Source of the DNA: a virus
Taxonomy: Duplodnaviria; Caudoviricetes
DNA length: 24,829 nucleotides
Reading direction: 5' to 3' (one strand)
IMG/VR virus record: IMGVR_UViG_3300028283_000029
Coordinates: 1-24,829 of that record
Position 1 is the stretch's first letter, and every line of letters starts with the position of its first letter. Both the position numbers and the translations under genes were made by a program. The notes under the pieces were generated by a model, which made no database searches, had not been told where the DNA came from, and saw only the letters and a list, made by a program, of their open reading frames with translations. Below are positions 1-17,121 of the stretch, one piece after another.

Positions 1-131
1 TTGACAGCGATGTTTTGTTCATAGGCCAAAATTGAGAAGTAATAACTCTTCTGCTTTTTCACTTCATACCATGCCTCCAAGAGAACATCGTAATCGCACC
101 ATTTGGCTTTTAGTCTTCCAGGTCTACCCAT
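1..131 (-). CDS. DGR reverse transcriptase, N-terminal fragment (continues beyond window start)
   Basis: ATG at 131-129 opens MGRPGRLKAKWCDYDVLLEAWYEVKKQKSYYFSILAYEQNIAV.., open to the window edge. It resembles the N-terminus of DGR RTs (D..NL..A....K.K......FE.NL..NL pattern) and sits directly after TR, where the RT lies in BPP-1-type cassettes. Catalytic motifs are not visible. Confidence 0.8.
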   Translation of the reverse strand, partial: MGRPGRLKAKWCDYDVLLEAWYEVKKQKSYYFSILAYEQNIAV

Positions 132-147
132 ATTATATAAAAGCGAG

Positions 148-184
148 GTGGCCAGACTTTCGGACTTCCTACTCGAATGACCAC
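148..184 (-). ncRNA. Structured spacer of the DGR RNA between TR and RT
   Basis: Minus-strand GUGGUCA (184-178) pairs with UGGCCAC (154-148), 7 bp including one G-U, enclosing AGUA-GG-AAGU-CC-GAA. Confidence 0.45.
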
Positions 185-289
185 GCTCTTAGATTTCTGT
201 CGTTGTGAGACAAGGATGATGCTCCCTTTTAACGATGGCCCACTCCGGCGTCCCTTGAGATTCCGGCTCACGGCCCTGGTGTTAAGAGT

Positions 290-401
290 CTGCCACGGAA
301 CGACACATTTCGATTTGAGTTATTCCGATTGTTATTCCAATTGCGCGCGCCCACCCCGGCGTAATAATTGTTATTCCAATTGAAGAAACCGAGGGGCGCA
401 A
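290..401 (-). repeat. DGR template repeat (TR)
   Basis: 112-bp ungapped match to 873-984 (offset 583) with 15 mismatches, all at TR adenines on the coding strand. In the target frame TR reads APLGFFNWNNNYYAGVGARNWNNNRNNSNRNVSFRG, with 12 AAY codons. Confidence 0.96.
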
Positions 402-416
402 AAACATATTCAAGCA

Positions 417-758
417 TCACCCTGTACTTTGGACTTTCATCCAGGCACCAAGCATGCGACCCACCTCATCAATATTGAGTTGGCTTACACGATGCTTTTG
501 CTGGTCGATGTACTTGAGCTCAAAGGCCAGATTGATCAGTTGTCTGAGCGTTTCATGCTTGACATCAAACTCCGAAAACGATGTTTTCTTGATGTACCGC
601 TTATTTGCGGCAACAGCCAGCTCCAGGATATCATAACCGAGTTCCCGGATTTTGGCTGCCAGCAAAAACTTCTCAAACTTTGGAAATTGCCTGAGCATGA
701 TATTGTTGTACAATATCATGTCCCGGATCTTCTTTTCGATGAGCAAGTATTCCGACAT
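417..758 (-). CDS. avd: DGR accessory variability determinant (Avd, four-helix bundle)
   Basis: 113 aa with FPKFEKFLLAAKI and C-terminal EVGRMLGAW, typical of Avd. Lies between VR and TR. Confidence 0.92.
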   Translation of the reverse strand: MSEYLLIEKKIRDMILYNNIMLRQFPKFEKFLLAAKIRELGYDILELAVAANKRYIKKTSFSEFDVKHETLRQLINLAFELKYIDQQKHRVSQLNIDEVGRMLGAWMKVQSTG

Positions 759-827
759 GGGCGCAAAAATAGGGCATTTCCTTTTAAGCGCAAACTTTTT
801 TCAAGATGTCAAAGAACAATATATGGG

Positions 828-851
828 GGCCACTCACTACCGCTCGTGGCC
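828..851 (-). promoter_or_regulatory. Hairpin/cruciform downstream of VR (candidate DGR target-recognition element)
   Basis: Minus strand GGCCAC-GAGCGGTAGTGA-GTGGCC, 5 nt after the target stop codon. It has a 6-bp GC-rich stem. Hairpins 3' of VR/IMH are known retrohoming elements. Confidence 0.65.
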
Positions 852-856
852 GACAT

Positions 857-2863
857 TTATCCAATCAAAAGGCTGCCACGGAACGACACAGACCGATATG
901 AGTTAGACCGACTGTAAGTCCAATGGCGCGCGCCCACCCCGGCGTAATAACCGTTAGGCCAATCGAAGAAACCGAGGGGCGCAAGTTGGTTAAGGATGTA
1001 GATATAACAATAGTCATTCCCCATCAAAGCAGTCCCTGGGCCATAACTATCCTTGCTCATGGGTAAGCCTGCAGCTGAGACCTTGTAGGCATTCGATGTG
1101 CGATCCACAGCACCTGAAAAGACCTGGTTTGATCCATTGCCATATAGTACCCCGAATTGACCACAGAAATCAACGTCAATCTCATCATACATGGCTGCCA
1201 CGCCGGTGGCACCCCAAAGATCTGTTGCCAGCGATACGCCTGAAGTGACGTTCTTCAGATCCACTGATTCCTTCAGGATGTAGAACTTGCAAGTAATGCT
1301 GGTCAGACCATTGGCATAATCAGCTGTTAAAGCTGAGGTGTCAACGTAGGCACCGGCCTTGTTTTTCAGTTTAAACGTGTTGCCGGAGAGATCGCTAATG
1401 GTAAAGATTTTGTCTTTCAGAAGCGTTGCCCACTCTCCAGTTAAGGATCCTCCAATCTGGACCGGCTTTCTGTTTGCATAGTTTGAATTGACTGCAACTG
1501 CATCGGTAACCGTCACCACTGCCTGTGCTGCCCTGGTGATGGCTGCAATGGCCTGTGCAGATTCGGCAATACTGGTGACACCCGGCAGGAATTCATATAA
1601 GTTGCAATCAATGGCCACTCCTGAATCCTGGCCATTGTGAGTGGTCTTATTAAAGGGAGTACCACCTCCGCATTTTCTTGCTTCACCTGGTGCAGTTTTG
1701 CTGCTCCAGTATGCATCATCACAAGCGGCATAAGTGACACCGCTATCATAATAGTCAACCCCGTAATAATTGTTGCCACGTGGTTCTGAAGGACTCACAC
1801 CGTTAAAGGCACAATTTGCTGTTCCGATTGCAGCCTGCTTGTGAATCTGAGTGACAAATCGCAGCCATTCAGCTGCAAAGATTGTCATCACATGATAGCT
1901 TGCACCACGGCTCTTGATCGCATCAACACTCCCAGCATAGATGTCAGCAGGTGATTTACCGTTGGCTCTGCAATTAGAGAAACTGCCCGCATACAGATTA
2001 TCGGTGCCCGGATTAAGCCTCTTCATCCCACCGTCTGAGCTGATTGGGTTGCCGAGCTTGATCGAACTGGCCACACCCTTATTAGCGAGGGATCCTGATC
2101 CATCCAGATCAGAGGCGGTGATGCCAGTTAGCGATGGTTTGAATTTATCCAGGAAGATACCTCTGTTGATCCTACTGCCGTTGATGAATACTCTGGGAAG
2201 GAAATAACCTGCAGCGTTGGCAGCGGCTTCATCCTTAAAATAGCCCTCCGGCTTAATATCGCCCGTATTGTCGGCGTTTTTCTTGCCCCAGGCCATTGGG
2301 TTCCACACCAGGATCGATCCATCATGAGAAACCTTATAATTGCCGTAATTCGAGGAGCTGATATCGTAGGTCCCGTTAATGGGCAGGACTTCTTCACCAG
2401 GATGCAAGGCATTATATGCTCCAAGCAGCTCGGGAGGGCAAATTCCAACCCCGAAACCACGTTTGCCTGGCTCTCCGATGTGATTCACCAGGGTACCGGT
2501 CTGAAGCATTACTTCGTTTCCGGTTGAATCCAGAACAAAAATCCTGCCTTCAGCGTCCAGACTTAGCCTGCGGATGCCTGCACCAGGTGAACCGGGTTTC
2601 ACAGCCCTCTCAATGAAGTCCCTATAAGCTGCAGACGATTCTGCACCGGTCGAGTCGGAATTTCTCCACTGAGCGTTTGCCACATCCCAGATCCAGAATG
2701 AATTTGTTGCTTTTACCATGGCGAAGTCGCCCGGATCCCCGACCGGCCTGAAGCCTGTCAGCTCACTCGAGGTTTCAAACGGAAGGCCGTCCTTGGTAAT
2801 ATAATGAACAAAGTCGGCCAGAAGCGTGCCGAGATTTACGATTTTACTTGTTCCTGTTGACAT
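857..2863 (-). CDS. DGR target protein, predicted receptor-binding/tail-fibre protein with C-terminal CLec-like variable region
   Basis: 668 aa, last gene of the tail module. It has TTHNGQDSGV..NLYE and a terminal VSFRG, as in CLec/FGE-type DGR targets. VR encodes residues near the C-terminus. Confidence 0.88.
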   Translation of the reverse strand: MSTGTSKIVNLGTLLADFVHYITKDGLPFETSSELTGFRPVGDPGDFAMVKATNSFWIWDVANAQWRNSDSTGAESSAAYRDFIERAVKPGSPGAGIRRLSLDAEGRIFVLDSTGNEVMLQTGTLVNHIGEPGKRGFGVGICPPELLGAYNALHPGEEVLPINGTYDISSSNYGNYKVSHDGSILVWNPMAWGKKNADNTGDIKPEGYFKDEAAANAAGYFLPRVFINGSRINRGIFLDKFKPSLTGITASDLDGSGSLANKGVASSIKLGNPISSDGGMKRLNPGTDNLYAGSFSNCRANGKSPADIYAGSVDAIKSRGASYHVMTIFAAEWLRFVTQIHKQAAIGTANCAFNGVSPSEPRGNNYYGVDYYDSGVTYAACDDAYWSSKTAPGEARKCGGGTPFNKTTHNGQDSGVAIDCNLYEFLPGVTSIAESAQAIAAITRAAQAVVTVTDAVAVNSNYANRKPVQIGGSLTGEWATLLKDKIFTISDLSGNTFKLKNKAGAYVDTSALTADYANGLTSITCKFYILKESVDLKNVTSGVSLATDLWGATGVAAMYDEIDVDFCGQFGVLYGNGSNQVFSGAVDRTSNAYKVSAAGLPMSKDSYGPGTALMGNDYCYIYILNQLAPLGFFDWPNGYYAGVGARHWTYSRSNSYRSVSFRGSLLIG
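873..984 (-). repeat. DGR variable repeat (VR)
   Basis: Encodes APLGFFDWPNGYYAGVGARHWTYSRSNSYRSVSFRG and differs from TR only at TR adenines (6 A>C, 5 A>G, 4 A>T). Confidence 0.96.
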
Positions 2864-2881: not shown

Positions 2882-3208
2882 TTAAACGAGGAAATCGATT
2901 TTGCTGATGGTTCCTGCCTTGCCTGAACCATTAAGGACTGCGACCCTGACAAATATCCCAACCGGGGCAATGGGCCAGTTCCAGCTATGCGATGTCTTAG
3001 CAGGATCCACCGTTTGTACTGAACCAGGAACAACATCGAAATGCACACCGGCAACGCTCTGCTCCAGCTGCAGCTTCACGTCAGTTGCAACGATATCGAC
3101 ATACTGCGCCTGTATGACAGCGCATTTACCATCAGTAATCTGTACGGCATCAAAGGAGTGATTCCCGCCTGTGATCGCGTAATTTGGGGATTGTTTTATT
3201 AATGACAT
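2882..3208 (-). CDS. Small beta-rich virion protein, paralog of the C-terminal domain of 5409..5981
   Basis: 108 aa in the tail operon. Shares IKQ..Y...G..SFD.V, EQS..G..F, K.SH..N and GTI..I with the C-terminus of 5409..5981. Confidence 0.7.
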   Translation of the reverse strand: MSLIKQSPNYAITGGNHSFDAVQITDGKCAVIQAQYVDIVATDVKLQLEQSVAGVHFDVVPGSVQTVDPAKTSHSWNWPIAPVGIFVRVAVLNGSGKAGTISKIDFLV

Positions 3209-3239
3209 AATATTACGTTTTTACTTGTTTGTGTTCTTA

Positions 3240-4064
3240 TTAATGATCAGCATCAATTGCAGCTCCGCCACCGCCAGTTGGTAATCCCCAAAAGACTGAA
3301 TCCACGAAATTGATCAGATACTGGAATGATATATAATTTGTCACAGTAGTTGACGCACCGGAAACGTAGACATCTCCATTAGCCTTTATTTTCAATACAC
3401 CTGGTGCAATGGTACCGTTAAAAAAGAATCCCATTAAATCGCCAGTGGGCCTGTGACCTGAAGGCAGACTTGTAATCTTTCCCGCGGTGATACTTGCATT
3501 GAATGCGGCCAAAAGCATGTAATGACCCATGGTGTTCTTTTCAAGTTTTATCCCGTTAAAACCCGTGGCTGCAGCAAATCCGGTCAAATAGGAAAGAGTC
3601 TGCAGGCTCGTTAAATTCGAATTCAGTGTTATCTGGGAAAGTATGTAGGCACTTAGTTTGCTGATCATCGGCAAGGAATTGAAAACAATGCCACCCGAAG
3701 GAGGAGTGCTTTCATATGCAAATACATACCTTCTAATCTCCCATACATCATGGGTACTGCCATCTTTAAAACTTCTGTTTTCAGTAGTATCAATATCTTC
3801 GACCAGGTACAATCCCTTTGATTCATTCTCAGTGAAACTCACGGCAGGTACATAACAGATCTCTTCACCATCGAAGAAATACCCCTCAGTAACGTCAACC
3901 GTGCCCGCTACGGTGAGTTCCATGCCGCAAACGATGAAATGTGCCTCTGCGGGCAACAAGCCCGTTAAAACGGCTTTTAAAAGGGCTTTTTCCACGTTTT
4001 GAATGAACTCCCAGTCTGTAGTTCTGAGCGGCTGCCCGCCACTAATGCTTTTCAATATATCCAT
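3240..4064 (-). CDS. Baseplate-attached tail fibre/adaptor protein
   Basis: 274 aa after the baseplate wedge genes. The C-terminal ITSLPSGHRP...LKIKANGDVYV segment resembles the common LP.G.RP tail-fibre domain. Confidence 0.65.
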   Translation of the reverse strand: MDILKSISGGQPLRTTDWEFIQNVEKALLKAVLTGLLPAEAHFIVCGMELTVAGTVDVTEGYFFDGEEICYVPAVSFTENESKGLYLVEDIDTTENRSFKDGSTHDVWEIRRYVFAYESTPPSGGIVFNSLPMISKLSAYILSQITLNSNLTSLQTLSYLTGFAAATGFNGIKLEKNTMGHYMLLAAFNASITAGKITSLPSGHRPTGDLMGFFFNGTIAPGVLKIKANGDVYVSGASTTVTNYISFQYLINFVDSVFWGLPTGGGGAAIDADH

Positions 4065-4522
4065 TAGACAAGTTGTATTATGAACAATTTACCGGCGAGC
4101 TTATATTTCTGAACATAAGCCGCGATCACGGCGCAAAAATCTGATATCGCCCTGGGAACCTGAACGACAAAATCAACAGTAACAGAATCCTCTCCACTAT
4201 AAACGAAATCATCAGGATCAACCATAAAAAAATCAATGTCAGCGGATGGCGGATCGGTAGAAAATACCCAGGGACCTAATTGATACCCTTCGACAATTTT
4301 GATATCTGTCCGGCCATACCTGGAATTGAGCAGCTTCTCGAGATAACACACCTGAGGTGTCATTTTTGCTTCTTTTAAACTTTGCGACCATAACTGGCGA
4401 AGCTGTTCCAATATCGCAGATAGATACGAAATGAATACTTTCACCCATGCAATGAACACCGGCCTTCGCCTGTTGTGCGGCAGCAGGATTTGAATAACCT
4501 TATATAATGAGAATCGAATCAT
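4064..4522 (-). CDS. Putative baseplate wedge protein (Mu gp48/P2 gpI position)
   Basis: 152 aa, overlaps its neighbours' start/stop codons and follows the baseplate-J-like gene. Function assigned by synteny only. Confidence 0.6.
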   Translation of the reverse strand: MIRFSLYKVIQILLPHNRRRPVFIAWVKVFISYLSAILEQLRQLWSQSLKEAKMTPQVCYLEKLLNSRYGRTDIKIVEGYQLGPWVFSTDPPSADIDFFMVDPDDFVYSGEDSVTVDFVVQVPRAISDFCAVIAAYVQKYKLAGKLFIIQLV

Positions 4523-5409
4523 TCAATACTTACGTTAACATTATCTACGAATGTATAGGAACTGTCGCTTGAAATGATGAAATATCCAGATACACTTTCA
4601 ACCTTCATATCAACCAAACTATAAGTACCTCCCGCAGGTTTGTGATATGCTGAATTCAATTTAACGTCAATTACTCCTTCAGCTCCCTGAATGGCATCGA
4701 TTAATTTAGAAAGCATGATCACACCATCAAACTCCAGGGCACCTGCATAAGCAGCGATGGCATCAGCGATTGGGAAAACCGATGCATCCCTGAGCAGCGA
4801 GTTATTTCCGGCAAGGACCAACCGGTCGCGGACAATAGTGATATTGATCTTCAGATAATCGGCTGCCTGCGAAACGATCTCAAGTTTCACCCCGGCATCT
4901 TTCCACTGCTTCCAAAACTCGGTGAATGTTGCTTTCTCCGTAACATCCAAAGCAGCTTTTACTCCATTCACCTCTTTGGCAACTTTTAAAATAACCTTTC
5001 CATCCCTCTCTGCAGCTGCCGCATATTTCACGATCTTGGATGCCTCATCGATCCGGTCGTAAACATACTGTTCCTCGATCCAGGTGAGGGCATATCCATA
5101 CTGAAACTTCTTACTCTCCTCAGCATACCAGCGCAGGGTATGAGGCTTTTTTGATGCAAGCAGATTGCTGATTTCCGTTTTATGGCTGTCAAACAATGAT
5201 TCGACAATCCAGGAACCCACTGCGAATACCCAAATCCAAAGCCGCCATACCGCAACTTTGCTCACTGAAGTAATATCAGCAAGCAGCGTCTCCCAGGTAT
5301 CCTGAACGCTATATGAGTTATTTGCGTCAACCACGTAATCATGCAGTTCCTGAAACGTCGATTTAACAACGTTCAAACGGTCGTATATTTCACTGATCTT
5401 GCGAGCCAT
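4519..5409 (-). CDS. Putative baseplate J/gp47-like wedge protein
   Basis: Probable start at ATG 5409 (MARKISEIY), which overlaps the upstream TGA. Contains SKVAVWRLW, PHTLRWY..FQYG and L.DAIQ..EGV.DV motifs, and lies in the baseplate cluster. Confidence 0.7.
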   Translation of the reverse strand: MARKISEIYDRLNVVKSTFQELHDYVVDANNSYSVQDTWETLLADITSVSKVAVWRLWIWVFAVGSWIVESLFDSHKTEISNLLASKKPHTLRWYAEESKKFQYGYALTWIEEQYVYDRIDEASKIVKYAAAAERDGKVILKVAKEVNGVKAALDVTEKATFTEFWKQWKDAGVKLEIVSQAADYLKINITIVRDRLVLAGNNSLLRDASVFPIADAIAAYAGALEFDGVIMLSKLIDAIQGAEGVIDVKLNSAYHKPAGGTYSLVDMKVESVSGYFIISSDSSYTFVDNVNVSIE

Positions 5410-5981
5410 CAAACCCTCCAAATGATTTCATCAATTGTACCTGTTGCTCCACTTACATCAACCCTGATCCTGGTATAGTCAGTTACAAGACCTGCGATGT
5501 TAAAGGTATGCGAAGGCTTATCTGCATCCAACTGAAAGGTTGCCCCGGTGATGGCTGAGAAGGATATCCCGTCGAGAGACTGCTCAACATAAACCCCAAC
5601 GGTCCCGGTCATAGAACTGTAGTTGATCTGCACGCTCAGTTCATCGCCAAGGTTTGCCAGTCGCACGCCATCAAAGGATGTATCCCCATCGGCCAGGTCG
5701 TAAGCAACAACTTGTTTTATCTGTATCATGTCATCCTGTGTTATGGAAATTTCTTCACCGAGTCCTGAAACTGGTTTAATATTGTTCCGGGTATAGTAGT
5801 CGAGTACTGAGGCATTGATTACTTTATCCGGGACCAGCACTTTGGTTCCTGGTGCAATGGCCATGTCAAGTCTCAAAAAGGCGTTAGAAGCAATGATATC
5901 GAACACGCCCTCGATGCTACCCATTTCCTGCAGTGCGATATCGAATATTGTTTGTCCTGATAATGCGATTACCGTCTTCAT
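5409..5981 (-). CDS. LysM/P2 gpX-like baseplate protein fused to a C-terminal beta-sandwich domain
   Basis: N-terminal GQTIFDIALQEMGSIEGVFDIIASN..PGTKVLVP is LysM-like. The C-terminal ~105 aa are paralogous to 2882..3208. Confidence 0.75.
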   Translation of the reverse strand: MKTVIALSGQTIFDIALQEMGSIEGVFDIIASNAFLRLDMAIAPGTKVLVPDKVINASVLDYYTRNNIKPVSGLGEEISITQDDMIQIKQVVAYDLADGDTSFDGVRLANLGDELSVQINYSSMTGTVGVYVEQSLDGISFSAITGATFQLDADKPSHTFNIAGLVTDYTRIRVDVSGATGTIDEIIWRV

Positions 5982-6271
5982 GCGTATTTTGCCCTTATCT
6001 TTAACTGAGTGCCTGATCTTAATTCCGAAATGCTTAAACCGTCTCTTATGAACTGCATCCTGATCTTGCGCAGCATATCGGTTGGATCCTCCTCATTTAT
6101 GAAATTGCGAAGCCCTACTCCGACCGTGGCTGATTGTTTATATTCACCCTCACCCGACTCAAGCAGATCCCCCTGGTGCTGCAGAGTGGCATCACCAAGT
6201 ACAAAATCCCCGGCTTTGCAAGCGAGATCACCAGTGATCGTATCAATCATTATGTCGGTTACTTTCGTCAT
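5978..6271 (-). CDS. Putative gp25/gpW-like baseplate (sheath initiator) protein
   Basis: 97 aa, coupled to neighbours, with GDF..GDAT.QHQ..LL...GEYKQ...GVG. Called from size and position. Confidence 0.6.
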   Translation of the reverse strand: MTKVTDIMIDTITGDLACKAGDFVLGDATLQHQGDLLESGEGEYKQSATVGVGLRNFINEEDPTDMLRKIRMQFIRDGLSISELRSGTQLKIRAKYA

Positions 6272-6490
6272 TTAACTCATCGTTCCAGTGCATGTTCCTA
6301 CATTGCCCCCGGCAGTACATCCACTTGCTGTGGTACCGGTAACGGTTCCTGATTTAACAAACAAGTCAATGGCATCGGCAATTTCTGATGCCAGACTCAA
6401 AAACGCCGCTTCGGGATTCGTGGTCTTCCCCTTAGCGGTAGTAAACGCCTGGTTAATATCCTGGATCAACTTTGCTTTATTGAGTGCCAT
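6272..6490 (-). CDS. Small baseplate-region protein
   Basis: 72 aa, translationally coupled (TAATG at 6490). N-terminus is helical and the C-terminus is Gly/Thr/Cys-rich. It follows the spike gene. Confidence 0.6.
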   Translation of the reverse strand: MALNKAKLIQDINQAFTTAKGKTTNPEAAFLSLASEIADAIDLFVKSGTVTGTTASGCTAGGNVGTCTGTMS

Positions 6491-7005
6491 TACTTAAATA
6501 GTTTAGGTATGCGTAAACTTAGATCTACAAACTCCTGTATATTAATCGGTGTTCCGCTGGGACCGGTACCCGTTGTTACCGTCAATTTCATAATTTCATT
6601 AACGAGGTCCGAAACAAGCGTTTTAAGGTTTTCCTGGTCGTTTTTGATGGTAAACTTTGCCCCCTCCAGATTGATCTCATTATTCTTGCTGTCGATGATA
6701 ACGGTTACCTTTTTGTGCTTGTACAGGATCTTCTCCGGATCATCCACTTTGCACACGAACAAATCACGTAAGTCACCATGATTCGCACAAACGACAACCT
6801 GGGATCCCACCGTGGGATAAATTACGAATTTGTCACTGGCTCCGTCGTCCGTTGCCTTCAGTCGTACTTTGGTTAGCTCCAAACCGCCGATATCCACACT
6901 GCAGGTATCCCCGGTTATTTTCGTCACCTTGGCATAAGCAAAGATGTCGCCGTCCGGTTTACGGAAACGCTTCAGTGATTCGATGGCCTGAGCACGCTTA
7001 TCCAT
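6490..7005 (-). CDS. Baseplate central spike (gpV/gp45-like)
   Basis: 171 aa with an OB-fold-like N-terminus (AKV..TCSVDI..VRL..PTVGSQVVV), a beta-strand-rich middle and TGTGPSGTPIN. Confidence 0.72.
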   Translation of the reverse strand: MDKRAQAIESLKRFRKPDGDIFAYAKVTKITGDTCSVDIGGLELTKVRLKATDDGASDKFVIYPTVGSQVVVCANHGDLRDLFVCKVDDPEKILYKHKKVTVIIDSKNNEINLEGAKFTIKNDQENLKTLVSDLVNEIMKLTVTTGTGPSGTPINIQEFVDLSLRIPKLFK

Positions 7006-7970
7006 TATGCTAATTTCCTTCCCAGTTCAACTTTCTTAGAAATCCCTGCCTCGCTTGCTGAGGTGGTTACCGAAACCACATAATAAGTTCCGGTCTTGTA
7101 CTCGTAATCCTTATCGATGATTTTGGCTGAATACCCTGGATGACATTCGGGAATAGCCCAGCCGGTGATTGCGCCTTCATAACCTGTAAAAACAACATAT
7201 TTAAGTTCCGCTTCTCCAAGTTTTCTCAAAGTTGCTGCATCAACAACCCCGTTTTTTTTAATGCATCTCTTTTCTCCTCCAGTAGTTCCAACAGTAACTA
7301 CGGTCCGCTTGCCATCAATCGATATCCCTTCGACTTCTATTTCACATTTCCGATCTTCTGCGCGTCTATATTTAAGATCACTCTTTTCTATATTGATAGC
7401 AAAATCGTATTTTACTTCTCCAAATTTTTCAATATATGGCGGATGAAAGTGAAGTTCATTCTCTTTCATGTAAACATTTCCCTTTGTTTCCTCTTGCAGT
7501 TTATTCAATACATCCCGGCCATTGGCTTTGCTGACAACAAACTTGTCATATTGAATTTCATAATCACACTTGAGGGTTATTTTCTGAGGGAGTGATTTAT
7601 TGACCTGGTCAACCACATACTGCGCTACATCCTTGCTGGTACAGTTTACAAATTCTTTATCCTTGACCGATACACGGGTCCTGTATATGCCATCTTCACA
7701 GGATAGGGTAATGGTGCCATCGTCTGTGGAAACGCTTTCTAAATAGCCTTTAAATTCAGTTTTAAGGCTATTGTCATACCCGAGTTCAATCAGCACTTCA
7801 TCCCCACACTTGATCTTGCCTTCAACTTCGAGCTGCTTGTTAAGTTTGGACCCAGGGAGTTTAATAATGGCCGTATCGCAGAGGATATCCACCGATTCAT
7901 GGATCTCCACCGATTCAAGGAATAGAAGCTTGAATTTCCCGATCTTTATATGCCAGTCAATATTATACAT
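7005..7970 (-). CDS. Baseplate hub (late control D/Mu gp44-like)
   Basis: Probable start MYNIDW at 7970, overlapping the upstream stop by 8 nt. Contains DTAIIKLP, GDEVLIELGY..EFKGY and CEDG motifs. Confidence 0.78.
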   Translation of the reverse strand: MYNIDWHIKIGKFKLLFLESVEIHESVDILCDTAIIKLPGSKLNKQLEVEGKIKCGDEVLIELGYDNSLKTEFKGYLESVSTDDGTITLSCEDGIYRTRVSVKDKEFVNCTSKDVAQYVVDQVNKSLPQKITLKCDYEIQYDKFVVSKANGRDVLNKLQEETKGNVYMKENELHFHPPYIEKFGEVKYDFAINIEKSDLKYRRAEDRKCEIEVEGISIDGKRTVVTVGTTGGEKRCIKKNGVVDAATLRKLGEAELKYVVFTGYEGAITGWAIPECHPGYSAKIIDKDYEYKTGTYYVVSVTTSASEAGISKKVELGRKLA

Positions 7971-8520
7971 CTTCCTGAATGAGTAATTCTGTAATGTCGT
8001 CCGAATATGCCGAAATAGTAAACCGCTGTACATTATCGCCTTTGGTAAAAGGAAAATTGAATGTATCGATCACCAGGTGATTGATGTTAAAAATTTTTGT
8101 CAGATTGCATTCAATGTCTACTGAACCGTTTTCACACAGCTCGCGTAGTTTTTGAAGATCCTGCTCTGGGAATGTGTTGGCATCGTCATAACTCATGAAG
8201 GTCCCTTCAATGGTTATCTGGTAATCATCCTGTGTCCAACGTTCTTTAATCGTGCCCCGGCCTTTTCCTTTGGCTACTGTACGTTTTGCAACCACATTAC
8301 CGCCGTCAACCGTGATCATGGGTTCAACCGGGAAGATCCAGAACTCCTCGTTCTCATCTTTGCGCAACTTCACCGGCATCACCATAGGATATCCTAAGGC
8401 ATTCGAAGGCACAGACTCCTGAGATCCACCCGATGTATTGTCCAGGTAGATGTATTCATCCTTCCCCGTATCCTCGAGGTTGATCCTTACCTTATCAATG
8501 GGGCGTGAAACGGGAATCAT
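7963..8520 (-). CDS. DUF6046-like tail tube initiator protein
   Basis: 185 aa directly after the tape measure gene. Contains EPMITV..RGTIKERW..DDYQITIEG and Q.FTISAYSD. Confidence 0.7.
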   Translation of the reverse strand: MIPVSRPIDKVRINLEDTGKDEYIYLDNTSGGSQESVPSNALGYPMVMPVKLRKDENEEFWIFPVEPMITVDGGNVVAKRTVAKGKGRGTIKERWTQDDYQITIEGTFMSYDDANTFPEQDLQKLRELCENGSVDIECNLTKIFNINHLVIDTFNFPFTKGDNVQRFTISAYSDDITELLIQEDV

Positions 8521-10631
8521 GTGTTTGCCTGTGCTAATGATAATACCCTGGTCAATTCATCGAGGACCATATCCCGCATTTTTTCCGCATTTTCTTTAAA
8601 ACCTCCGGATGACGAATTGAAATTCATGGTCCCTACAAGCTCCTTCAGGTTAATAGTGATATTCGTGCTCTTGGATCCACCCGTAGCCACGGCTTCAGAA
8701 ATTTTTGCTGAAGGGCCTGCAGGAGTAGTTCCCTTTTTCCCACTACCAGTACTGGTCGATCCGGGAAGGGCCGGAGGAGAAATACCTGGTTCGTAAGTTC
8801 CCTGGTCACCGAACGAAAAGCCCTGGTTATCCTGTGCAGCAGCGACAGGGGCAGAGACGCCCACTACATAAACAGGTTTTACTGCGGATGACTGATCTGA
8901 CGTCGCTGCAGCTTTTGCCCGTTCATTAGCCAGGTTAAGTTTATAATCTGTTCCGATTCCTTTCACCAGGTCAGCCGAAGAGGCAACAGCGTTCTTTACG
9001 GCATCATAGCCGCTCAGGTCGATCACGCCCTGTTTGGCACTTTGCCAGGCTCCTTTGAAATCGCCGGTAAACAATTTATAGATTGCCGACCCCATTAAAC
9101 CCAGACCGCTGATGATCCCTTTTACACGATCCAGCACAAAGGTTTTCAAAATGTTTCCGAATCCCTTGATCGTATCCCATACGGTTAAGATCACGGCGCG
9201 GAAACCTTCAAATTTATTCCAGGCAAGAATGATCCCGGCCACCAGAGCACCAATCCCAAGTACGATCCATCCAATGGGAGAAGCCAGAAAGGCGGCGTTC
9301 AATAACCACTGAACAGCCGTCCATGCCACTGTAGCACCCACCACGATCCCACTCCAAAGCACCTGGGCTTTTGTTGCTATCAGCGACTGCCACATGGCTT
9401 TAACCTTTGCCCATAATGAAACAGCCCAAGCATTTTCTGAGATGCAGGCCAGCATATTGACAAGGGTAAGTGCCCCTACAACTCCCTGTATAGCCAATAC
9501 GGCAATTTTAAAGCCGGGAATTGCTCCTTTGACTACATTGAACAGGCTTATGCCAAAGTCTTCGACAGTGGCCTTAATTCGAGCCATTTTTTCAGAAAAG
9601 CTGCCCATTACGATCTGCGCCTGTTCGTTTGCTGATTGGGTGCCTGTAACTGCAGTGGTCAGTCGGCCTATTTCATCCGTGCCACTGATCAGGGCGAGTG
9701 CGGCATTTTGGTTTTCCTTCCCAAATAATTTAGTGATCAGCGCAGCATCATTCATGGCGGGCTTAAGAAGGTTGAGACGATCCCTAAAGCTAAGACTGGT
9801 ATTGCCCAGATTCTGGATATCGATACCTGCTTTGACCAAAGCTTTTTGAGTTTCGGGAGGCAGGAACCGGCCCTCAGATAAAGTGGCCAGAACGTTTCGT
9901 ATTGCGACCCCGCCTTCAGCTCCTTTTTTGCCTGCTTTGTCAAGTACCTGGATCGATGCATTCAGTTCCTCAAATGAAACACCGGCCATTTTTGCGGCCA
10001 TTCCGGAGTTTTCCAATGCGGCTTTGATTGCAGGGAGTTCAGCAGATCCTTCTTTTGCAGCTGCAGCCATGACATTCATCATACTTGACATCACCCCGGC
10101 TGCCTTGGTAGGATCATCCAGGGAAACCTGGAACTGGTTCATGGCCGTGGTAAGTACCTCGGTTGCCGCAATGGTATCCCCGCCCATGGTTTTACTCAGA
10201 ATAGCTACATTATCCCCCATCGCTTTAAGAGCTGCAGGAGTTTTTGCAATGTCTGGGCCCAGCTGTGAAAGTATCAGTTTATACGACTCAACACCGGCGG
10301 CGGCACTGCCTCCGAAAGTCTTTGCGGCTTGCCGGGCGTATCCTTCGATCTCTTTTAACTTATCCCCGGTCACACCGGTTATGGCCGAGAGTTCAGCCAT
10401 ATTCTTGTTCAGATCAACACCCGGCTTGATGGCCGTGTCTATGGCCTGACTAAGATTGTCGATTGCATTCTTGACATTATTAGCAGCAAAAGCGCAATCC
10501 CCGAACTTCTGCAAAGCCGAGCGCAGGGTATTGGTTCCCTTTACTGCCGATGTCGCCGTTTCATTAATTTTAGCAAACGTGGAAGTGACGTTACCAGTAA
10601 CATTGATGGTATATGTTGTGGTATTGCTCAT
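8517..10631 (-). CDS. Tail tape measure protein
   Basis: 704 aa, Ala/Gly-rich and helical, with a TP901-type core (GVSFEELNASIQVL..AGKKGAEGGVAIRN) and a hydrophobic LNAAFLASPIGWIV segment. Confidence 0.93.
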   Translation of the reverse strand: MSNTTTYTINVTGNVTSTFAKINETATSAVKGTNTLRSALQKFGDCAFAANNVKNAIDNLSQAIDTAIKPGVDLNKNMAELSAITGVTGDKLKEIEGYARQAAKTFGGSAAAGVESYKLILSQLGPDIAKTPAALKAMGDNVAILSKTMGGDTIAATEVLTTAMNQFQVSLDDPTKAAGVMSSMMNVMAAAAKEGSAELPAIKAALENSGMAAKMAGVSFEELNASIQVLDKAGKKGAEGGVAIRNVLATLSEGRFLPPETQKALVKAGIDIQNLGNTSLSFRDRLNLLKPAMNDAALITKLFGKENQNAALALISGTDEIGRLTTAVTGTQSANEQAQIVMGSFSEKMARIKATVEDFGISLFNVVKGAIPGFKIAVLAIQGVVGALTLVNMLACISENAWAVSLWAKVKAMWQSLIATKAQVLWSGIVVGATVAWTAVQWLLNAAFLASPIGWIVLGIGALVAGIILAWNKFEGFRAVILTVWDTIKGFGNILKTFVLDRVKGIISGLGLMGSAIYKLFTGDFKGAWQSAKQGVIDLSGYDAVKNAVASSADLVKGIGTDYKLNLANERAKAAATSDQSSAVKPVYVVGVSAPVAAAQDNQGFSFGDQGTYEPGISPPALPGSTSTGSGKKGTTPAGPSAKISEAVATGGSKSTNITINLKELVGTMNFNSSSGGFKENAEKMRDMVLDELTRVLSLAQANT

Positions 10632-10646
10632 TGTTCACTATATTTG
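10615..10646 (+). promoter_or_regulatory. Bacteroidota-type primary sigma promoter
   Basis: -7 box TATATTTG at 10639-10646 matches TAnnTTTG. GTTG at 10615-10618 lies 20 nt upstream (-33-like). ATG at 10662. Confidence 0.6.
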
Positions 10647-10661
10647 CAAAAATCAATCACT

Positions 10662-10850
10662 ATGGAAACGGCTGTTACAGTCCTCTTTTCAATTGTTTTC
10701 GGTATCCCGCTTCTTATCGCTTTCATTGAGTTGGTCCGACTGTTTTTTGTAGGGATTTATGAGATGTGGCGCAAGTTACTTTCCGGTCCTTCTGATACTG
10801 ATGATTCTACTTTCTTAGAAAGATACAGGGAACGTAATCGTATTCATTAG
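10662..10850 (+). CDS. Small single-pass membrane protein (antisense moron)
   Basis: 62 aa from ATG 10662, with a hydrophobic N-terminus (VTVLFSIVFGIPLLIAFI) and charged tail. It fills the gap between the chaperone and tape measure genes and has its own promoter box. Confidence 0.65.
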   Translation: METAVTVLFSIVFGIPLLIAFIELVRLFFVGIYEMWRKLLSGPSDTDDSTFLERYRERNRIH

Positions 10851-11014
10851 TCCCCTGCTTCTTTTTCCCTTTGCCTGATATCCGCCAACTGTTTAAAGGT
10901 CTCTGCCCATTGCTCGTCACTTAATTTGTCCGGGTCGATGTGCAGGTAATACCGCAGCATCGTATTTATATACCCTATCTTATTGTGGGTGATAGAGCCC
11001 TGGGCAGCCTCTAA
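10847..11014 (-). CDS. Tail assembly chaperone C-terminal (GT) extension reached by -1 frameshift
   Basis: The -1 frame is open for 55 codons (LEAAQG..MLRYYLHIDPDKLSDEQWAETFKQLADIRQREKEAGD*) from slippery G GAT TTT at 11020-11014. Not in the ORF track. Confidence 0.8.
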   Translation of the reverse strand, partial: LEAAQGSITHNKIGYINTMLRYYLHIDPDKLSDEQWAETFKQLADIRQREKEAGD

Positions 11015-11322
11015 AAATCCTCTACCTCCACTTCTTTAGTTGTGAGCATGTCCTTCAGAAAGGGTGTGATGGCGAAAAAGAACTGATTGTTGGTCTTGAT
11101 CTCGTCGCTGCCACCCAGCCAGATGGTCTTCAGAAATTGCTCGTTATTTTTAATGGGGTCCTTTGAGGCGCTGGAGTTTGCATAAGAGACTTCAACGCGA
11201 GTGGGATAGCGCAGGTAGGCAGCATGCCCGTCAATGACGAACTTTTTACCTGGACCGTACTTCTTCTTCCACTCCTCGAGCTGTTCCTTGGAAACTTCGC
11301 CGATCAGTTTTTCTTTTGCCAT
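11011..11322 (-). CDS. Tail assembly chaperone (G form)
   Basis: 103 aa between the tube and tape measure genes, ending on a slippery heptamer directly before TAG. Confidence 0.82.
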   Translation of the reverse strand: MAKEKLIGEVSKEQLEEWKKKYGPGKKFVIDGHAAYLRYPTRVEVSYANSSASKDPIKNNEQFLKTIWLGGSDEIKTNNQFFFAITPFLKDMLTTKEVEVEDF

Positions 11323-11338
11323 AATAGAGTCTTAAGAA

Positions 11339-11749
11339 TTAAAGTACCTGGTGCTGTAACCTCAGTGCGATGAACGGCAGAGTGCATTCCATGTTCTTAT
11401 CACCCTGTTTCATTTCCTTGGCACTCTCGGTGAACATGATATGAACCATCCGGTCGGTGATCAGGGTATCGCCATTGGAAGGATTTCCATAGCTGATCAC
11501 TGCATCTGTTATGATGTTCAGGATGGATCCCATGCCTTCGGCAATAAGAAGTTCCAGCTCACTCTGGGTGCAGGTGATCTCACCTTCGTAGTTCACGTTT
11601 CCGCTCTGGATTGAATGAGGATAACGACCCTTGGCATGAAGGGCTTCACGTTCGATTTTCTCGGAGTATTTAATACCCCGGATGCCGGTGATATCACGCT
11701 TGCCTACGACAAGCGTGATATCTGCGAATTCATATTGTCTGCTGTCCAT
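11339..11749 (-). CDS. Tail tube protein
   Basis: 136 aa downstream of the sheath gene. Contains YEFADI..GIRGIKY..GRYPHSIQSGN..YEGEI and KQGDKNME..LPF. Confidence 0.82.
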   Translation of the reverse strand: MDSRQYEFADITLVVGKRDITGIRGIKYSEKIEREALHAKGRYPHSIQSGNVNYEGEITCTQSELELLIAEGMGSILNIITDAVISYGNPSNGDTLITDRMVHIMFTESAKEMKQGDKNMECTLPFIALRLQHQVL

Positions 11750-11768
11750 ATAAGTGAGGATGTTGGAG

Positions 11769-12218
11769 TTACTTTTTCTTGTATAACCAGCCTTTTACCC
11801 TGATGGTGCCAGTGGAATAATGAGACACGGCAAAACGGTAATAAGGCAGGGAGAGGTGAGATGCTATAGTCCATATGTAACCTGCATCAGAGGTTGAAAA
11901 CCTTACGGTTGAGAAGACAGTCGGAGCTGCCGCAGTAAGGGCGACAATATTTGTATATACCGTGGATCCCAAAGTCACCCAGTTTGAATTATCACTCGAT
12001 CCCTGGATCGCTACATAGGTGCTGTCTGAGGAACCTGTCATGTGATCAACAAAGATCTGGAATGATCCGTAGGTGAGTTCAGGAACAACCGAAGCAGCAT
12101 AATACTTAGTCTGATTGTCGGTGAGCGTATCGGTGTAGTTAGCCATAACTACACGCTGGGCATTTGATGATACTGCGAAAAGCAGTGAGATTGCAAATAA
12201 AACAAAGAGTTTTTTCAT
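11769..12218 (-). CDS. Signal-peptide-bearing beta-rich protein
   Basis: Probable start at ATG 12218 (149 aa). MKKLFVLFAISLLFAVSSNA-Q is a classic Sec/SPI signal with an SNA|Q cleavage site, preceded by an A-rich leader. Confidence 0.8.
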   Translation of the reverse strand: MKKLFVLFAISLLFAVSSNAQRVVMANYTDTLTDNQTKYYAASVVPELTYGSFQIFVDHMTGSSDSTYVAIQGSSDNSNWVTLGSTVYTNIVALTAAAPTVFSTVRFSTSDAGYIWTIASHLSLPYYRFAVSHYSTGTIRVKGWLYKKK

Positions 12219-12243
12219 GATTTTTATGGTTTTTAATGGATAC

Positions 12244-13440
12244 TTAAACGGTAATTGCTTTGAAGCCCAGGTACACGTCGATATACCTTGCGTAACCGAA
12301 AGGACGTACACGCACTCTGACGATAACCTTGGACGTGCTAACCACGTTCTGGGTGGCATCGATGAAGCATTCAACGCCCCTGTCTTTGGGGTTGGTCACG
12401 TCTGCAGAGAGTTCACGGTTTGCAGTCATCTGAAGAGCAATGGCATTCTCAACTTTACCCTGCCAGCTCTTAACCTGCGTCACCTGCATGGTGCCATCGG
12501 TATTTACCGGGATCTCGTCAAGGAGTTCCTCCAGGAGGGTGTCATAAGCAATGCGATATGCCTTGTCGATTGTACGACGGGCCGTTAAACTGCGATAATC
12601 GTCGGTCACCAGGGTACACAGCAGGTCATCGCTGAAGAAATAACCACTGCGGCCTACAAAGGTTCTCAGGGTAATGTAACCCTTGTCATGGATGCTTTCA
12701 ACATCGGCATTCTCAACTTTGATATCCTTAATGAAAGCAGTAAGGGATTCAATTGGACCGTCTTTAACGCGGCCAATATTACGTTGTACAGGAATCGAAG
12801 CGATGCGACCGGCCAGCATGCCCATGCAGGCATTGCCTGAGGTGGTCACGGTATCCCCGATCAGGATCCCCACGCGGTTGTCAGAAGCTAAAGTCTGGTC
12901 CGATAATGCAACGGCAGATCCACTGTATGCACGTCCCTCAAGGATAGTAAACAGGGGGGCCATCAGGGTTTCAGTTGCCCATTCACCCAGAGCCTGAGCC
13001 TTGAGCACGGCAGCCTCGACATCCTCATCCAGGCCGTGAGTTACCGTTGGAGTATATTCTGCGGCAGGAGTACGTGAAACAATCAGTCCCCTTAAGCGGC
13101 CATTGGCTGCAAGAACCAGGGATTTTCCATGGGTCAGATCCTTATCCACCATCTGAGCCATCGTTACGGTGTTGGCAAAAGCCATCAGCCATACTTCAGT
13201 ACCATCTCCGGCCATCGCATAGAAGTCGGTGAATAACTTTACGATGTTCGGATTGTTGGCTGTGGTGATACCAAGGGTATCTTCCAGGTCAGCAAACTTG
13301 CGAACAATATAAGCAGTCGACAGGGCAAACTTCTGACTCACGGCCACGCCGGTGCAGAGGATTCCCAAAACGCCATCAGGACTCGGTATTACCGATCCAA
13401 GTGCGCCATTTTCAAACAATATTTTAACTCTTGGAAGCAT
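12244..13440 (-). CDS. Tail sheath protein (DUF2586-like)
   Basis: 398 aa starting MLPRVKI.F.NG.LG. Contains GRIASIPVQRNIGRVKDG, KGYITLRTFVGRSGYFF, R.IDKAYR and VRPFGYARYI.V.LGF. Confidence 0.88.
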   Translation of the reverse strand: MLPRVKILFENGALGSVIPSPDGVLGILCTGVAVSQKFALSTAYIVRKFADLEDTLGITTANNPNIVKLFTDFYAMAGDGTEVWLMAFANTVTMAQMVDKDLTHGKSLVLAANGRLRGLIVSRTPAAEYTPTVTHGLDEDVEAAVLKAQALGEWATETLMAPLFTILEGRAYSGSAVALSDQTLASDNRVGILIGDTVTTSGNACMGMLAGRIASIPVQRNIGRVKDGPIESLTAFIKDIKVENADVESIHDKGYITLRTFVGRSGYFFSDDLLCTLVTDDYRSLTARRTIDKAYRIAYDTLLEELLDEIPVNTDGTMQVTQVKSWQGKVENAIALQMTANRELSADVTNPKDRGVECFIDATQNVVSTSKVIVRVRVRPFGYARYIDVYLGFKAITV

Positions 13441-15001: not shown

Positions 15002-16027
15002 TTAAGCAGTTGCGTCTGCGGAATAGATCGCGGCAATGGCAGTAGCACGCAATGGAAGTGCGCAGTAGCGCATCTGGAAGTTGATCACGTCGCCCTTGTT
15101 ATCAGGATCGGCATATTTTGCGAACATTTCAATCGTCCCCATGGCCTTCATGACTTCATCCTTATGGAAGGCGAACGATGAAATAGTATCCGTTGCTGCG
15201 GCAGCGGCTGCATAAGCAGCTTTTGCACCGGTATTGATATTGAACACCGGAGTGGCAGAGGTACGGAATAATTTGAATCCAAACAGGGTGCCATTGACCA
15301 TGGCAGCCTTATAAAGGTTGAGGTCGGCTTCGATCAGATGGCTTTCATGGGTCGGGTTAAGAACCAGGATACGGCCATCTGCCGGAAAATCCAACAGATT
15401 AAACTTGGTCATCAGATCAAGTACATCTTTAAAGGTCAGCTTTTTCTTTCCTGATGCATCAGCAGCTCCGCTCGAGGCGAGAACCGGGGTGAGTGCAGAA
15501 TCAGATGACGGGCACCAGTTCCATGCAGCCAGTTTACAAGCGGTTTTCAAAAGTTCCTGCTTGTGGCCGTAAATGACCGAGGCCATTTTATCATATGCAA
15601 GTTCCATAGCTTCCACGTTGCGAACCACGGTCGAAGTTGTATCCAGGGTTTTCAATGCGAGTTCCTTAGGTACGTCGGTGCGGGATGCAACAGCAATGGG
15701 ATATGAAGTATTATCGATAAGCACTGAAGGATTGGCCCCTACTTCGGCCAGGTTGATCTTGTTATATTCAACCATTGCGCTCATATCCCTTGCCTGGGAA
15801 ATAAATGAATTCTCGGGGTAAAACTTTTCAAGCAGGATATCGGTCCAGATTTCTTTCTGAAGTCCTGCCATCAGGATCCCGCTGCCCAGGGGGGCAAAGG
15901 AAAGAAGGGTACCACAACCCACTGCAGCAGCCATTGAAAGCACCGGCGGGATGGAAAACAGTGCGCCGATGACCAGCGCGACAACCACGTTAAAAAACAG
16001 GTTAAAGATGTTTAATCGCTTTTTCAT
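15002..16027 (-). CDS. Major capsid protein
   Basis: 341 aa following the protease/scaffold gene. Contains KEIWTD.LLE.F, ELAYDK..S....H and P.DGRILVL.P.H..L. Confidence 0.8.
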   Translation of the reverse strand: MKKRLNIFNLFFNVVVALVIGALFSIPPVLSMAAAVGCGTLLSFAPLGSGILMAGLQKEIWTDILLEKFYPENSFISQARDMSAMVEYNKINLAEVGANPSVLIDNTSYPIAVASRTDVPKELALKTLDTTSTVVRNVEAMELAYDKMASVIYGHKQELLKTACKLAAWNWCPSSDSALTPVLASSGAADASGKKKLTFKDVLDLMTKFNLLDFPADGRILVLNPTHESHLIEADLNLYKAAMVNGTLFGFKLFRTSATPVFNINTGAKAAYAAAAAATDTISSFAFHKDEVMKAMGTIEMFAKYADPDNKGDVINFQMRYCALPLRATAIAAIYSADATA

Positions 16028-16045
16028 TTGTATTTAAGTTTGAGG

Positions 16046-16978: not shown

Positions 16979-17000
16979 CTTTGAGCGAATGAATTTCGAG

Positions 17001-17014
17001 CAAACATACGTTTG
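17001..17014. promoter_or_regulatory. Overlapping divergent TAnnTTTG boxes
   Basis: CAAACATACGTTTG gives TATGTTTG on the minus strand (17008-17001) and TACGTTTG on the plus strand (17007-17014), in the divergent intergenic region. Confidence 0.5.
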
Positions 17015-17121
17015 TAAAACCGCTCAGGCAAACATCCATAAAACACTAAAATACTTATACATAACTGTACGCGCGTTTTTTTAAAATAGCGCTTTTTACC
17101 ATCATTTTTGTAAATAAAAGT

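What the first reader, a model, noticed from the sequence alone, without database searches (positions are those of the whole stretch)
1..2863. DGR diversifying the terminal tail protein of a Mu-like contractile-tailed phage
Seen: TR 290-401 and VR 873-984 align without gaps over 112 bp. All 15 mismatches are at TR adenines (29 A in TR; 6 to C, 5 to G, 4 to T). TR has 12 AAY codons, 10 of which are changed in VR (D,P,G,H,T,Y,S,S,Y,S). avd lies between the repeats, and an RT-like ORF begins at 131. Known: this is adenine-specific mutagenic retrohoming with BPP-1 gene order. Each AAY codon can reach 15 amino acids without a stop, so 12 codons allow about 15^12 (~10^14) variants. DGRs in transposable Bacteroidota phages have precedent (Hankyphage). 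Inference: the absence of non-A drift suggests a recently active element that switches host-receptor tropism.
Basis: partly seen in the sequence, partly recalled or inferred. Interest (0 to 1): 0.9.

Follow-up and report, generated by a model that had tools for sequence, protein, structure and literature searches.

The report
Active phage tail-tip diversifying retroelement
A lake-water phage carries two repeats that differ only at adenines, next to a helper gene and the start of a likely reverse transcriptase, so it likely rewrites the tip of a predicted host-binding tail protein to change which bacteria it infects; this is a real but well-known kind of system.

Summary
Confirmed: a real diversity-generating retroelement (DGR) on the minus strand, in BPP-1 order (target-VR, avd, TR, RT). 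TR and VR align without gaps, with 15 of 15 mismatches at TR adenines. The contig ends 43 codons into the RT, but two database proteins match all 43 residues and are complete 337-aa RTs with LGNVSSQ and YMDD. Activity is supported: a database protein is identical outside VR and differs at 10 adenine-reachable positions, and contigs from two lake runs differ at TR-adenine sites in 14 of 14 listed positions. The target folds as an FGE-type C-type lectin (TaqVP, Z 29.2) with a predicted trimeric N-terminus. Sheath and Mu-type head genes are present; transposition is inferred from relatives only. FP_Mushu already combines transposase, sheath and DGR, and this scan noted a similar DGR on other DNA. 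Two small extras: an optional FCCH-like barrel inside the lectin domain, and a conserved boxA-like motif before avd. Ordinary system, new member.

The parts
1..131 (-). First 43 codons of the DGR reverse transcriptase, cut by the contig end
   Evidence: 43 of 43 residues identical to full-length 337-aa RTs P0409 and P0411, which carry LGNVSSQ and YMDD; 41 of 43 to the L060 RT, which is PF00078 and 33.9% identical to BPP-1 Brt
132..286 (-). TR-to-RT spacer (155 nt), likely the structured 3' part of the DGR RNA
   Evidence: 144-166 nt in 14 loci; conserved in 9 aligned loci, 11 of 38 predicted pairs with a change on both sides; on its own it folds no better than shuffles (z -0.61)
287..401 (-). 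Template repeat (TR); 112-nt core 290-401 with 29 A and 12 AAY codons; 3' end likely IMH*
417..758 (-). avd, accessory variability determinant (113 aa)
   Evidence: NF033474 92.1 bits, cut-off 80; PF22296 89.6 bits, cut-off 40; phrog_3206
764..794 (-). Bacteroidota-type promoter-like site ending 5 nt before the avd start codon (consensus recalled; function inferred)
   Evidence: 2 matches in the window, 0.28 expected, 3 of 100 shuffles reach 2; the full pattern lies before avd in 10 of 14 loci
799..817 (-). boxA-like motif (core 807-817) between the VR hairpin and avd; antitermination role inferred
   Evidence: core found before avd in 13 of 63 avd loci, namely all with Avd at least 77% identical; the 19-nt pattern lies in tRNA clusters in 10 of 18 viral loci; resembles published boxA sequences
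828..851 (-). Hairpin 3' of VR with a GRNA loop (GGTA) and a 2x2 GA/GA internal loop; likely target-recognition cruciform
   Evidence: 7 of 7 pairs show changes on both sides in 11 loci, 94.8% of cells paired, 0 of 500 shuffles as high; position
870..984 (-). Variable repeat (VR), about codons 627-664 of the target; core 873-984; 3' end likely IMH
857..2863 (-). Target gene, 668 aa: predicted trimeric N-terminal stalk plus FGE-type C-type lectin domain with VR at the C-terminus
   Evidence: AlphaFold2 pLDDT 87.8; TaqVP Z 29.2, rmsd 3.2, 305 aligned; Mtd Z 11.6; TvpA Z 11.2; Foldseek E 1.4e-11
1283..1567 (-). FCCH-like beta-barrel (residues 433-527) inserted inside the lectin domain; optional in the family
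   Evidence: Z 9.5 to a phage FCWL1 chain, Z 8.9 to the UBA1 FCCH region; present in 63 of 88 aligned rows; PF16190 precomputed on homologues but no Pfam hit on this copy
2459..2863 (-). Target residues 1-135, predicted homotrimer
   Evidence: score 0.78, best of 3 controls 0.00; mark reached by 20 of 30 solved homo-pairs and 1 of 23 single chains; runs agree in at least 47% of contacts, pLDDT at least 65
2882..13440 (-). Context: contractile tail module (baseplate hubs, tape measure, tube-like gene, sheath)
   Evidence: sheath phrog_907 E 1.5e-42, hubs phrog_4930 and 5233, tape measure phrog_28; DUF2586, DUF6046
15002..23812 (.). Context: Mu-type head and packaging module (capsid, protease, terminase, gp36, portal, MuF, neck)
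   Evidence: Portal_Mu 1.6e-67, Mu gp36, Phage_Mu_F; PHROG head families

Best explanation
This is a diversity-generating retroelement at the end of a phage tail operon: its template and variable repeats differ only at adenines and the variable repeat differs between assemblies, and it likely works by adenine-mutagenic retrohoming to rewrite the binding surface of a predicted trimeric tail receptor-binding protein. Steps. (1) avd, TR and RT are transcribed on the minus strand, from a promoter just before avd and/or by read-through from the tail genes (inferred). (2) An RT-Avd complex copies the TR RNA and misreads adenines (established for BPP-1; here inferred from the substitution pattern and the RT motifs of near-identical proteins). 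(3) The cDNA replaces VR, guided by the IMH end and the GRNA hairpin 18 nt downstream (hairpin conservation shown, role inferred). (4) Twelve AAY and two TAY codons in the last 42 residues change while the scaffold stays fixed (shown in database proteins and contigs). (5) The new lectin surfaces change which surface receptor of a Bacteroidales-like host is bound (inferred). The phage most likely replicates by transposition like Mu (inferred from head genes and relatives).
For: A-only mismatches, P 4.9e-11. Across 12 non-redundant related TR/VR pairs 198 of 363 A sites differ against 8 of 976 other sites. Avd over its cut-off. Two full RTs identical over all 43 visible residues, with the DGR-type SQ motif and YMDD; 120 of the 120 listed homologues carry the SQ motif and none QGxxxSP (motif per PMC3521204). 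P0001: no difference outside VR, 10 inside, all reachable from TR codons by A changes. Run X2 record 7 (522 nt, depth 5.2): 12 differences, 7 listed, 7 of 7 at TR-A sites; run X3 holds both the window's allele and a variant piece with 11 differences, 7 listed, 7 of 7 at TR-A sites. In two related clusters 6 of 7 same-length members compared differ from their first member only in the last 42 residues (clusters 3 and 4). Fold matches three solved DGR variable proteins. N-terminal trimer model 0.78 against control 0.00, with the calibration counts given under parts. Last gene of a tail module with sheath. Transposase phrog_310 in 5 of 6 ORFs tested from head-module relatives; three DGR-end relatives share a terminus with two repeats and then run into unrelated host DNA; in L062 that host's MutS equals a protein named from a Bacteroidales bacterium.
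Against: The RT of this contig is not visible past codon 43, so a lesion further on cannot be excluded. Only contigs could be laid, at depth 2 to 7, and 9 of the 23 differences in the two variant pieces were not listed by the tool; no allele frequency or rate. TR invariance was seen only for 331-401 in two contigs. The target has no tail-fibre family hit in Pfam, PHROGs or NCBIfam, and its nearest annotated phage matches are hypothetical proteins. The same cassette also sits in integrase-bearing phages (L003, L064) and in Mu-type phages whose head and sheath proteins are only about 25-40% identical, so relatives do not fix this phage's lifestyle or host. The spacer does not fold better than shuffles.
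Confidence: 0.85

Rival explanations
1. A real, active DGR, but the target is not the primary receptor-binding protein: it is an accessory virion adhesin (collar, baseplate or head decoration) that binds particles, biofilm matrix or a secondary receptor, so variation tunes attachment and not host range.
For: No tail-fibre family hit; closest solved fold TaqVP is a monomer; several BFVD matches are labelled tail collar fibre; FCCH-like barrels decorate tail tubes; DGR-targeted tentaclins are proposed adhesins.
Against: Last gene of the tail module, where BPP-1 mtd-type genes sit; predicted trimeric stalk; viral DGR targets are mostly tail proteins.
Confidence: 0.1
2. A once-active DGR that is now dead in this lineage (RT broken beyond the contig end); the VR alleles seen are standing variation or come from recombination with co-occurring related phages.
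For: RT not visible past codon 43; related phages with similar cassettes occur in the same runs at higher depth; the cassette is exchanged between phages.
Against: No non-A drift in 85 non-A sites; P0001 fits this TR at every VR codon and is identical elsewhere, whereas the VR of relative L058 shows 4 non-A mismatches to this TR; both RTs with an identical N-terminus are intact.
Confidence: 0.04
3. An ordinary duplication or an assembly artefact next to a group II intron or retron RT.
For: Best NCBIfam match of the related RT is the group II RT/maturase model (123 bits), far under its cut-off of 300.
Against: A-only pattern P 4.9e-11; the same layout in 14 loci; Avd present; SQ motif, not QGxxxSP; an independent contig spans VR unchanged (it may be the window's source).
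Confidence: 0.01

Closest known systems
Bordetella phage BPP-1 DGR (mtd-avd-TR-brt)
   Same: Gene order; A-only mutagenesis; C-terminal VR in an FGE-type C-type lectin (Mtd Z 11.6); GRNA hairpin 3' of VR; related RT 33.9% identical to Brt.
   Different: Hairpin stem broken by a 2x2 GA/GA loop instead of an unbroken 7-10 bp stem; target carries an FCCH-like insert and a different N-terminus; contractile tail, Mu-type head.
Faecalibacterium phage FP_Mushu and Bacillus phage BalMu-1
   Same: FP_Mushu: annotated transposase, transposition protein, tail sheath, avd and RT after the tail genes. BalMu-1: sheath, FGE-type target, avd, RT in the same order (only its right 23 kb was fetched).
   Different: Gram-positive hosts; RT 29-34% and Avd 31-43% identical; target matches only over the last 77 residues in BalMu-1 and not at all in FP_Mushu.
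Bacteroides Hankyphage p00
   Same: Transposable Bacteroidota phage with an active DGR at the end of the tail module, divergent head genes and a terminal methylase.
   Different: Flexible siphovirus-type tail; target 2239 aa; no match to this target, Avd or sheath; RT 29%, terminase 30%.
Thermus aquaticus variable protein TaqVP (5VF4)
   Same: Best structural match: Z 29.2, rmsd 3.2, 305 aligned, 17% identity.
   Different: TaqVP is a 381-aa single-domain monomer; this target adds a predicted trimeric stalk and a 95-residue barrel.
Winoviridae and the proposed Alisviridae (Mu-like Bacteroidota phages)
   Same: Mu-like structural proteins; Winoviridae core includes a sheath, Peternella is myoviridal; sheath matches Flavobacterium myophages.
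   Different: Terminase only 31-34% identical to their members; the word retroelement does not occur in the Winoviridae paper's main text.

Membership tests
Diversity-generating retroelement | TR/VR pair with mismatches at TR adenines | tested here: met
   15 of 15; 16 of 16 over 115 nt
Diversity-generating retroelement | VR inside a protein-coding gene, AAY codons in frame | tested here: met
   12 AAY codons in frame with codons 634-658 of the 668-aa ORF
Diversity-generating retroelement | Intact RT with YxDD and (I/V/L)GxxxSQ | tested here: inconclusive
   Only 43 codons in the window; two complete proteins identical over those 43 carry both motifs, but they are not shown to come from this phage
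Diversity-generating retroelement | Avd accessory protein | tested here: met
   NF033474 over cut-off
[quoted passage not shown]
   TaqVP Z 29.2, Mtd Z 11.6, TvpA Z 11.2 on a predicted model
Diversity-generating retroelement | Population variation at TR-adenine sites with constant flanks | tested here: met
   P0001 10 of 10 reachable; 14 of 14 listed contig differences at A sites, 9 unlisted; contigs only
Diversity-generating retroelement | RT-dependent retrohoming shown by experiment | not testable with these tools
   needs a cultured host or a reconstituted assay
BPP-1-type phage DGR | Order target-VR, avd, TR, RT on one strand | tested here: met
BPP-1-type phage DGR | GC-rich hairpin with GRNA loop 4-34 nt after VR (PMC3240598) | tested here: met
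   828-851, loop GGTA, 18 nt after VR, covarying; stem interrupted, unlike the published ones
BPP-1-type phage DGR | Tropism switching | not testable with these tools
   no host or receptor data
Mu-like transposable phage | MuA-type transposase and MuB | tested here: inconclusive
   Not in the window, which ends before the early region; present in head-module relatives (5 of 6 ORFs)
Mu-like transposable phage | Mu-type portal, gp36, MuF, protease | tested here: met
   Portal_Mu, gp36 and Mu_F over cut-off; the Mu protease match is under its cut-off
Mu-like transposable phage | Fixed ends joined to unrelated host DNA | tested here: inconclusive
   Seen for relatives L060, L062, L002; neither end of this phage is in the window
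Contractile-tailed phage | Tail sheath and baseplate genes | tested here: met
   phrog_907 E 1.5e-42, baseplate hubs
Hankyphage group | Close sequence similarity, sheathless flexible tail, giant target | tested here: not met
Winoviridae | Shared core protein clusters by whole-genome clustering | not tested
   only terminase (31%) and sheath comparisons were made
Group II intron or retron RT | QGxxxSP motif; curated model cut-offs | tested here: not met
   0 of 120 homologues; all under cut-off; tested on relatives

The most novel reading that the evidence does not exclude
This lineage of freshwater Bacteroidota DGRs borrows the host's rRNA antitermination system: a boxA-like element just after the VR hairpin loads Nus factors on the late tail transcript and carries it through avd and the roughly 285 untranslated bases of TR and spacer, tying mutagenesis to lytic induction. 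The target is also a distinct sub-type, a trimeric lectin with an optional FCCH-like barrel that could be a second, constant binding domain beside the variable one.
Probability: 0.35. Interest if true: 0.55.

Novelty: new member of a known kind. Interest (0 to 1): 0.3.

Why it matters
As a DGR it is one of tens of thousands already catalogued (PMC8144416), so it changes nothing in principle. It is a clean, active, non-gut example with natural VR alleles, useful for following phage-host matching in lake Bacteroidales. How DGR expression is regulated is still poorly understood; if the boxA-like element works as proposed, it would give a simple testable link between Nus antitermination and DGR RNA supply, as already described for CRISPR arrays.

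Tried and rejected
Extending the RT in the own genome: G000 is the window alone. GTDB scans: no relative of the target; the RT found 2 loci, 56% and partial, so no named close host. Pfam and PHROGs on the 43-aa RT piece: nothing. Pfam on the target, its insert region and its ends: nothing. Rfam: 0 in the window, only tRNAs in 4 related loci. Mu-transpos_C in four viral records: none over cut-off; all are 28-73% complete and L062 was not searchable. Further VRs in the window: none. Spacer folding alone: z -0.61. Rows dropped from the read counts: pieces that are the TR laid on VR (X1 record 3, X5 record 13; loose ends run into the TR flank) and pieces of related phages with differences outside VR (X1 records 2, 4, 5, 6; X3 records 11, 12; X5 record 14). 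Rejected: artefact or plain duplication; group II intron or retron; membership of the Hankyphage group; the 16th mismatch as a variable site. Literature searches with no hit: DGR + FCCH, DGR + boxA, boxA + antitermination + Bacteroidetes + consensus + tRNA. The eLife paper on boxA and CRISPR arrays is not held. No earlier scan notes on this genome or on the boxA idea.
Full report
Observation. The window is a 24,829-nt contig and is all that is held of this genome. Its only long repeat pair is 284-401 against 867-984. On the minus strand, TR 290-401 and VR 873-984 align without gaps with 15 mismatches, all at TR adenines (6 C, 5 G, 4 T; 29 A in TR; chance 4.9e-11). The pair extends to 115 nt with a 16th A-to-C mismatch, which reads the same way in 14 of 14 loci, some near-duplicates. 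I read it as the fixed IMH/IMH* difference (inference). No other VR lies in the window.

Cassette. The order on the minus strand is target-VR, hairpin, avd, TR, spacer, RT. Avd passes curated cut-offs. The RT ORF is cut after 43 codons and alone matches nothing. Locus L060 (84% identical DNA over window 1-3124) encodes a 337-aa RT matching 41 of those 43 residues, PF00078, 33.9% identical to BPP-1 Brt. Two members of its cluster, P0409 and P0411, match 43 of 43 and are complete, with LGNVSSQ and YMDD; 120 of the 120 listed homologues have the SQ motif and none QGxxxSP. The SQ motif marks DGR RTs (PMC3521204, passages). A hairpin at 828-851 has a GGTA loop 18 nt after VR; in 11 loci all 7 pairs change on both sides, 94.8% of cells pair, and 0 of 500 shuffles reach this (relatedness can inflate such counts). 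It fits the GRNA hairpin needed for homing in BPP-1 (PMC3240598, abstract and section 10), except that its stem has a GA/GA internal loop. The 155-nt spacer is conserved with some covariation but folds no better than shuffles.

Activity. P0001 is identical to the target outside VR and differs at 10 VR residues, each reachable from the TR codon by adenine changes alone. Five lake-water runs hold half or more of the sampled words. Laying contigs of five runs in two calls: X1 has the window's allele across the whole stretch (possibly the source); X2 record 7 has 12 differences over 907-1428, all before 1130, of which 7 are listed and 7 face a TR adenine; X3 has one piece with the window's allele and one with 11 differences, 7 listed, 7 facing a TR adenine. 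Depths are 2 to 7, 9 differences were not listed, and I set aside TR pieces and related phages (see Tried and rejected). In clusters 3 and 4, 6 of 7 same-length members compared differ only in the last 42 residues. Over 12 non-redundant pairs, 198 of 363 A sites differ, mostly to G, against 8 of 976 other sites.

Target. AlphaFold2 on an 88-row alignment gave pLDDT 87.8, pTM 0.82. [quoted passage not shown] Residues 433-527 form a separate barrel matching a phage FCWL1 chain (Z 9.5, rmsd 2.1, 82 aligned) and the UBA1 FCCH region (Z 8.9); it is present in 63 of 88 aligned rows, and PF16190 is on record for several homologues though not detected on this copy. Three copies of residues 1-135 scored 0.78 against a best control of 0.00; that mark was reached by 20 of 30 solved homo-pairs and 1 of 23 single chains, the counts hold only roughly for a trimer on my own alignment, runs agreed in at least 47% of contacts, pLDDT at least 65. 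Only a trimer was tried, and a pass may reflect likeness to solved fibres. No tail-fibre family names the protein. Receptor binding is therefore an inference from fold, position and the general rule for viral DGR targets (PMC8144416, passages).

Phage. Sheath, baseplate hubs and tape measure precede the target; portal, gp36 and MuF are Mu-type. The window stops before the early region. In six relatives found through the 23300-23812 gene (45-62% identical), 5 of 6 long early ORFs match transposase phrog_310, and the one neighbour tested matches phrog_296. Three relatives of the DGR end (L060, L062, L002) continue RT, a 136-140-aa ORF, a D12 adenine methylase, a shared terminus with two repeats 22-23 nt apart, then unrelated DNA; in L062 this is a chromosome whose MutS equals a protein named from a Bacteroidales bacterium. 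Against over-reading: the cassette also occurs beside tyrosine integrases and on Mu-type phages with distant head and sheath proteins, so it moves between phages.

Expression signals. A match to the Bacteroidota promoter consensus (recalled, not from a call) ends 5 nt before avd; one other match lies before the protease gene; 0.28 were expected. Just upstream, 799-817, is a motif whose core resembles boxA of E. coli, B. subtilis and a Legionella CRISPR array (PMC13753749 and PMC7862264, passages). The 19-nt pattern occurs in 18 viral loci: 10 in tRNA clusters on the same strand, 4 in these DGRs, 4 elsewhere. The core precedes avd in 13 of 63 avd loci, all of those with Avd at least 77% identical, including duplicates of the same contigs. 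As it lies upstream of the putative promoter, it could act only on read-through transcripts; it may instead be part of a promoter. This is the novel case, untested.

Comparison. It works like, and on every feature testable here belongs with, BPP-1-type phage DGRs; RT integrity in this copy is open. FP_Mushu has transposase, sheath, avd and RT and BalMu-1 has sheath, FGE-type target, avd and RT, so the combination in the title is known. Hankyphage (PMC6199706 and PMC12135933, passages; record) is transposable with an active DGR but has a flexible tail and an unrelated target. Winoviridae and the proposed Alisviridae are the nearest described phage groups (PMC8776804 and PMC10367356, passages), at 31-34% terminase identity. 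Tentaclins (PMC10743442, passages) have another architecture. Searches of the held library for DGR with FCCH and DGR with boxA returned 0 papers; the library lacks most subscription journals, and I opened no supplements, of which the catalogue in PMC8144416 may list these relatives.

Verdict. Real, very likely active, ordinary in kind: new member of a known kind, interest 0.3.

Noticed in passing
window 21220-22521 (+) and 22491-22709 (-): MuF head protein fused to an ADP-ribosyltransferase domain (PF04233 plus PF03496, both over cut-off), followed by a small acidic antisense ORF with no family hit; looks like a MuF polymorphic toxin (family recalled). Hankyphage has a small antisense ORF at the same place.
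   Followed up: partly
window 799-817 (-): boxA-like motif between the VR hairpin and avd, shared with phage tRNA clusters.
   Followed up: partly
window 764-794 (-) and 17001-17032 (-): Two Bacteroidota-type promoter-like sites, before avd (5 nt from the start codon, perhaps a leaderless mRNA) and before the protease gene.
   Followed up: partly
L060 9960-10170; L062 13016-13220; L002 8926-9150: After the methylase: a conserved stretch of about 100 nt with inverted repeats and no Rfam match, then two near-identical repeats 22-23 nt apart and a switch to unrelated host DNA, like a transposable phage end. A similar stretch follows the methylase in integrase-bearing L003.
   Followed up: partly
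L003, L064-L067, L005-L007, G001, G002: Closely related DGR cassettes sit on very different phage backbones (integrase-type and distant Mu-type), with swapped target N-termini: the cassette and tail tip move as a module.
   Followed up: partly
L060 8670-9092 and protein P0300: A 136-143-aa ORF of no known family follows the RT in 7 of 7 close viral loci and in L060; in P0300 it appears fused to the RT (525 aa).
   Followed up: no
Campylobacter phages CP220, CPt10, IBB_35 and others: The target's residues 133-366 match hypothetical proteins of 15 Campylobacter phage records at 26-28%; the CP220 protein is the best BFVD fold match (E 5.7e-19). Whether these have a DGR was not checked.
   Followed up: no
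window 24037-24702 (-): Bro-N antirepressor at the edge of the missing early region.
   Followed up: no
window 11769-12243 (-): A secreted-looking ORF of no known family between the sheath and tube-like genes.
   Followed up: no
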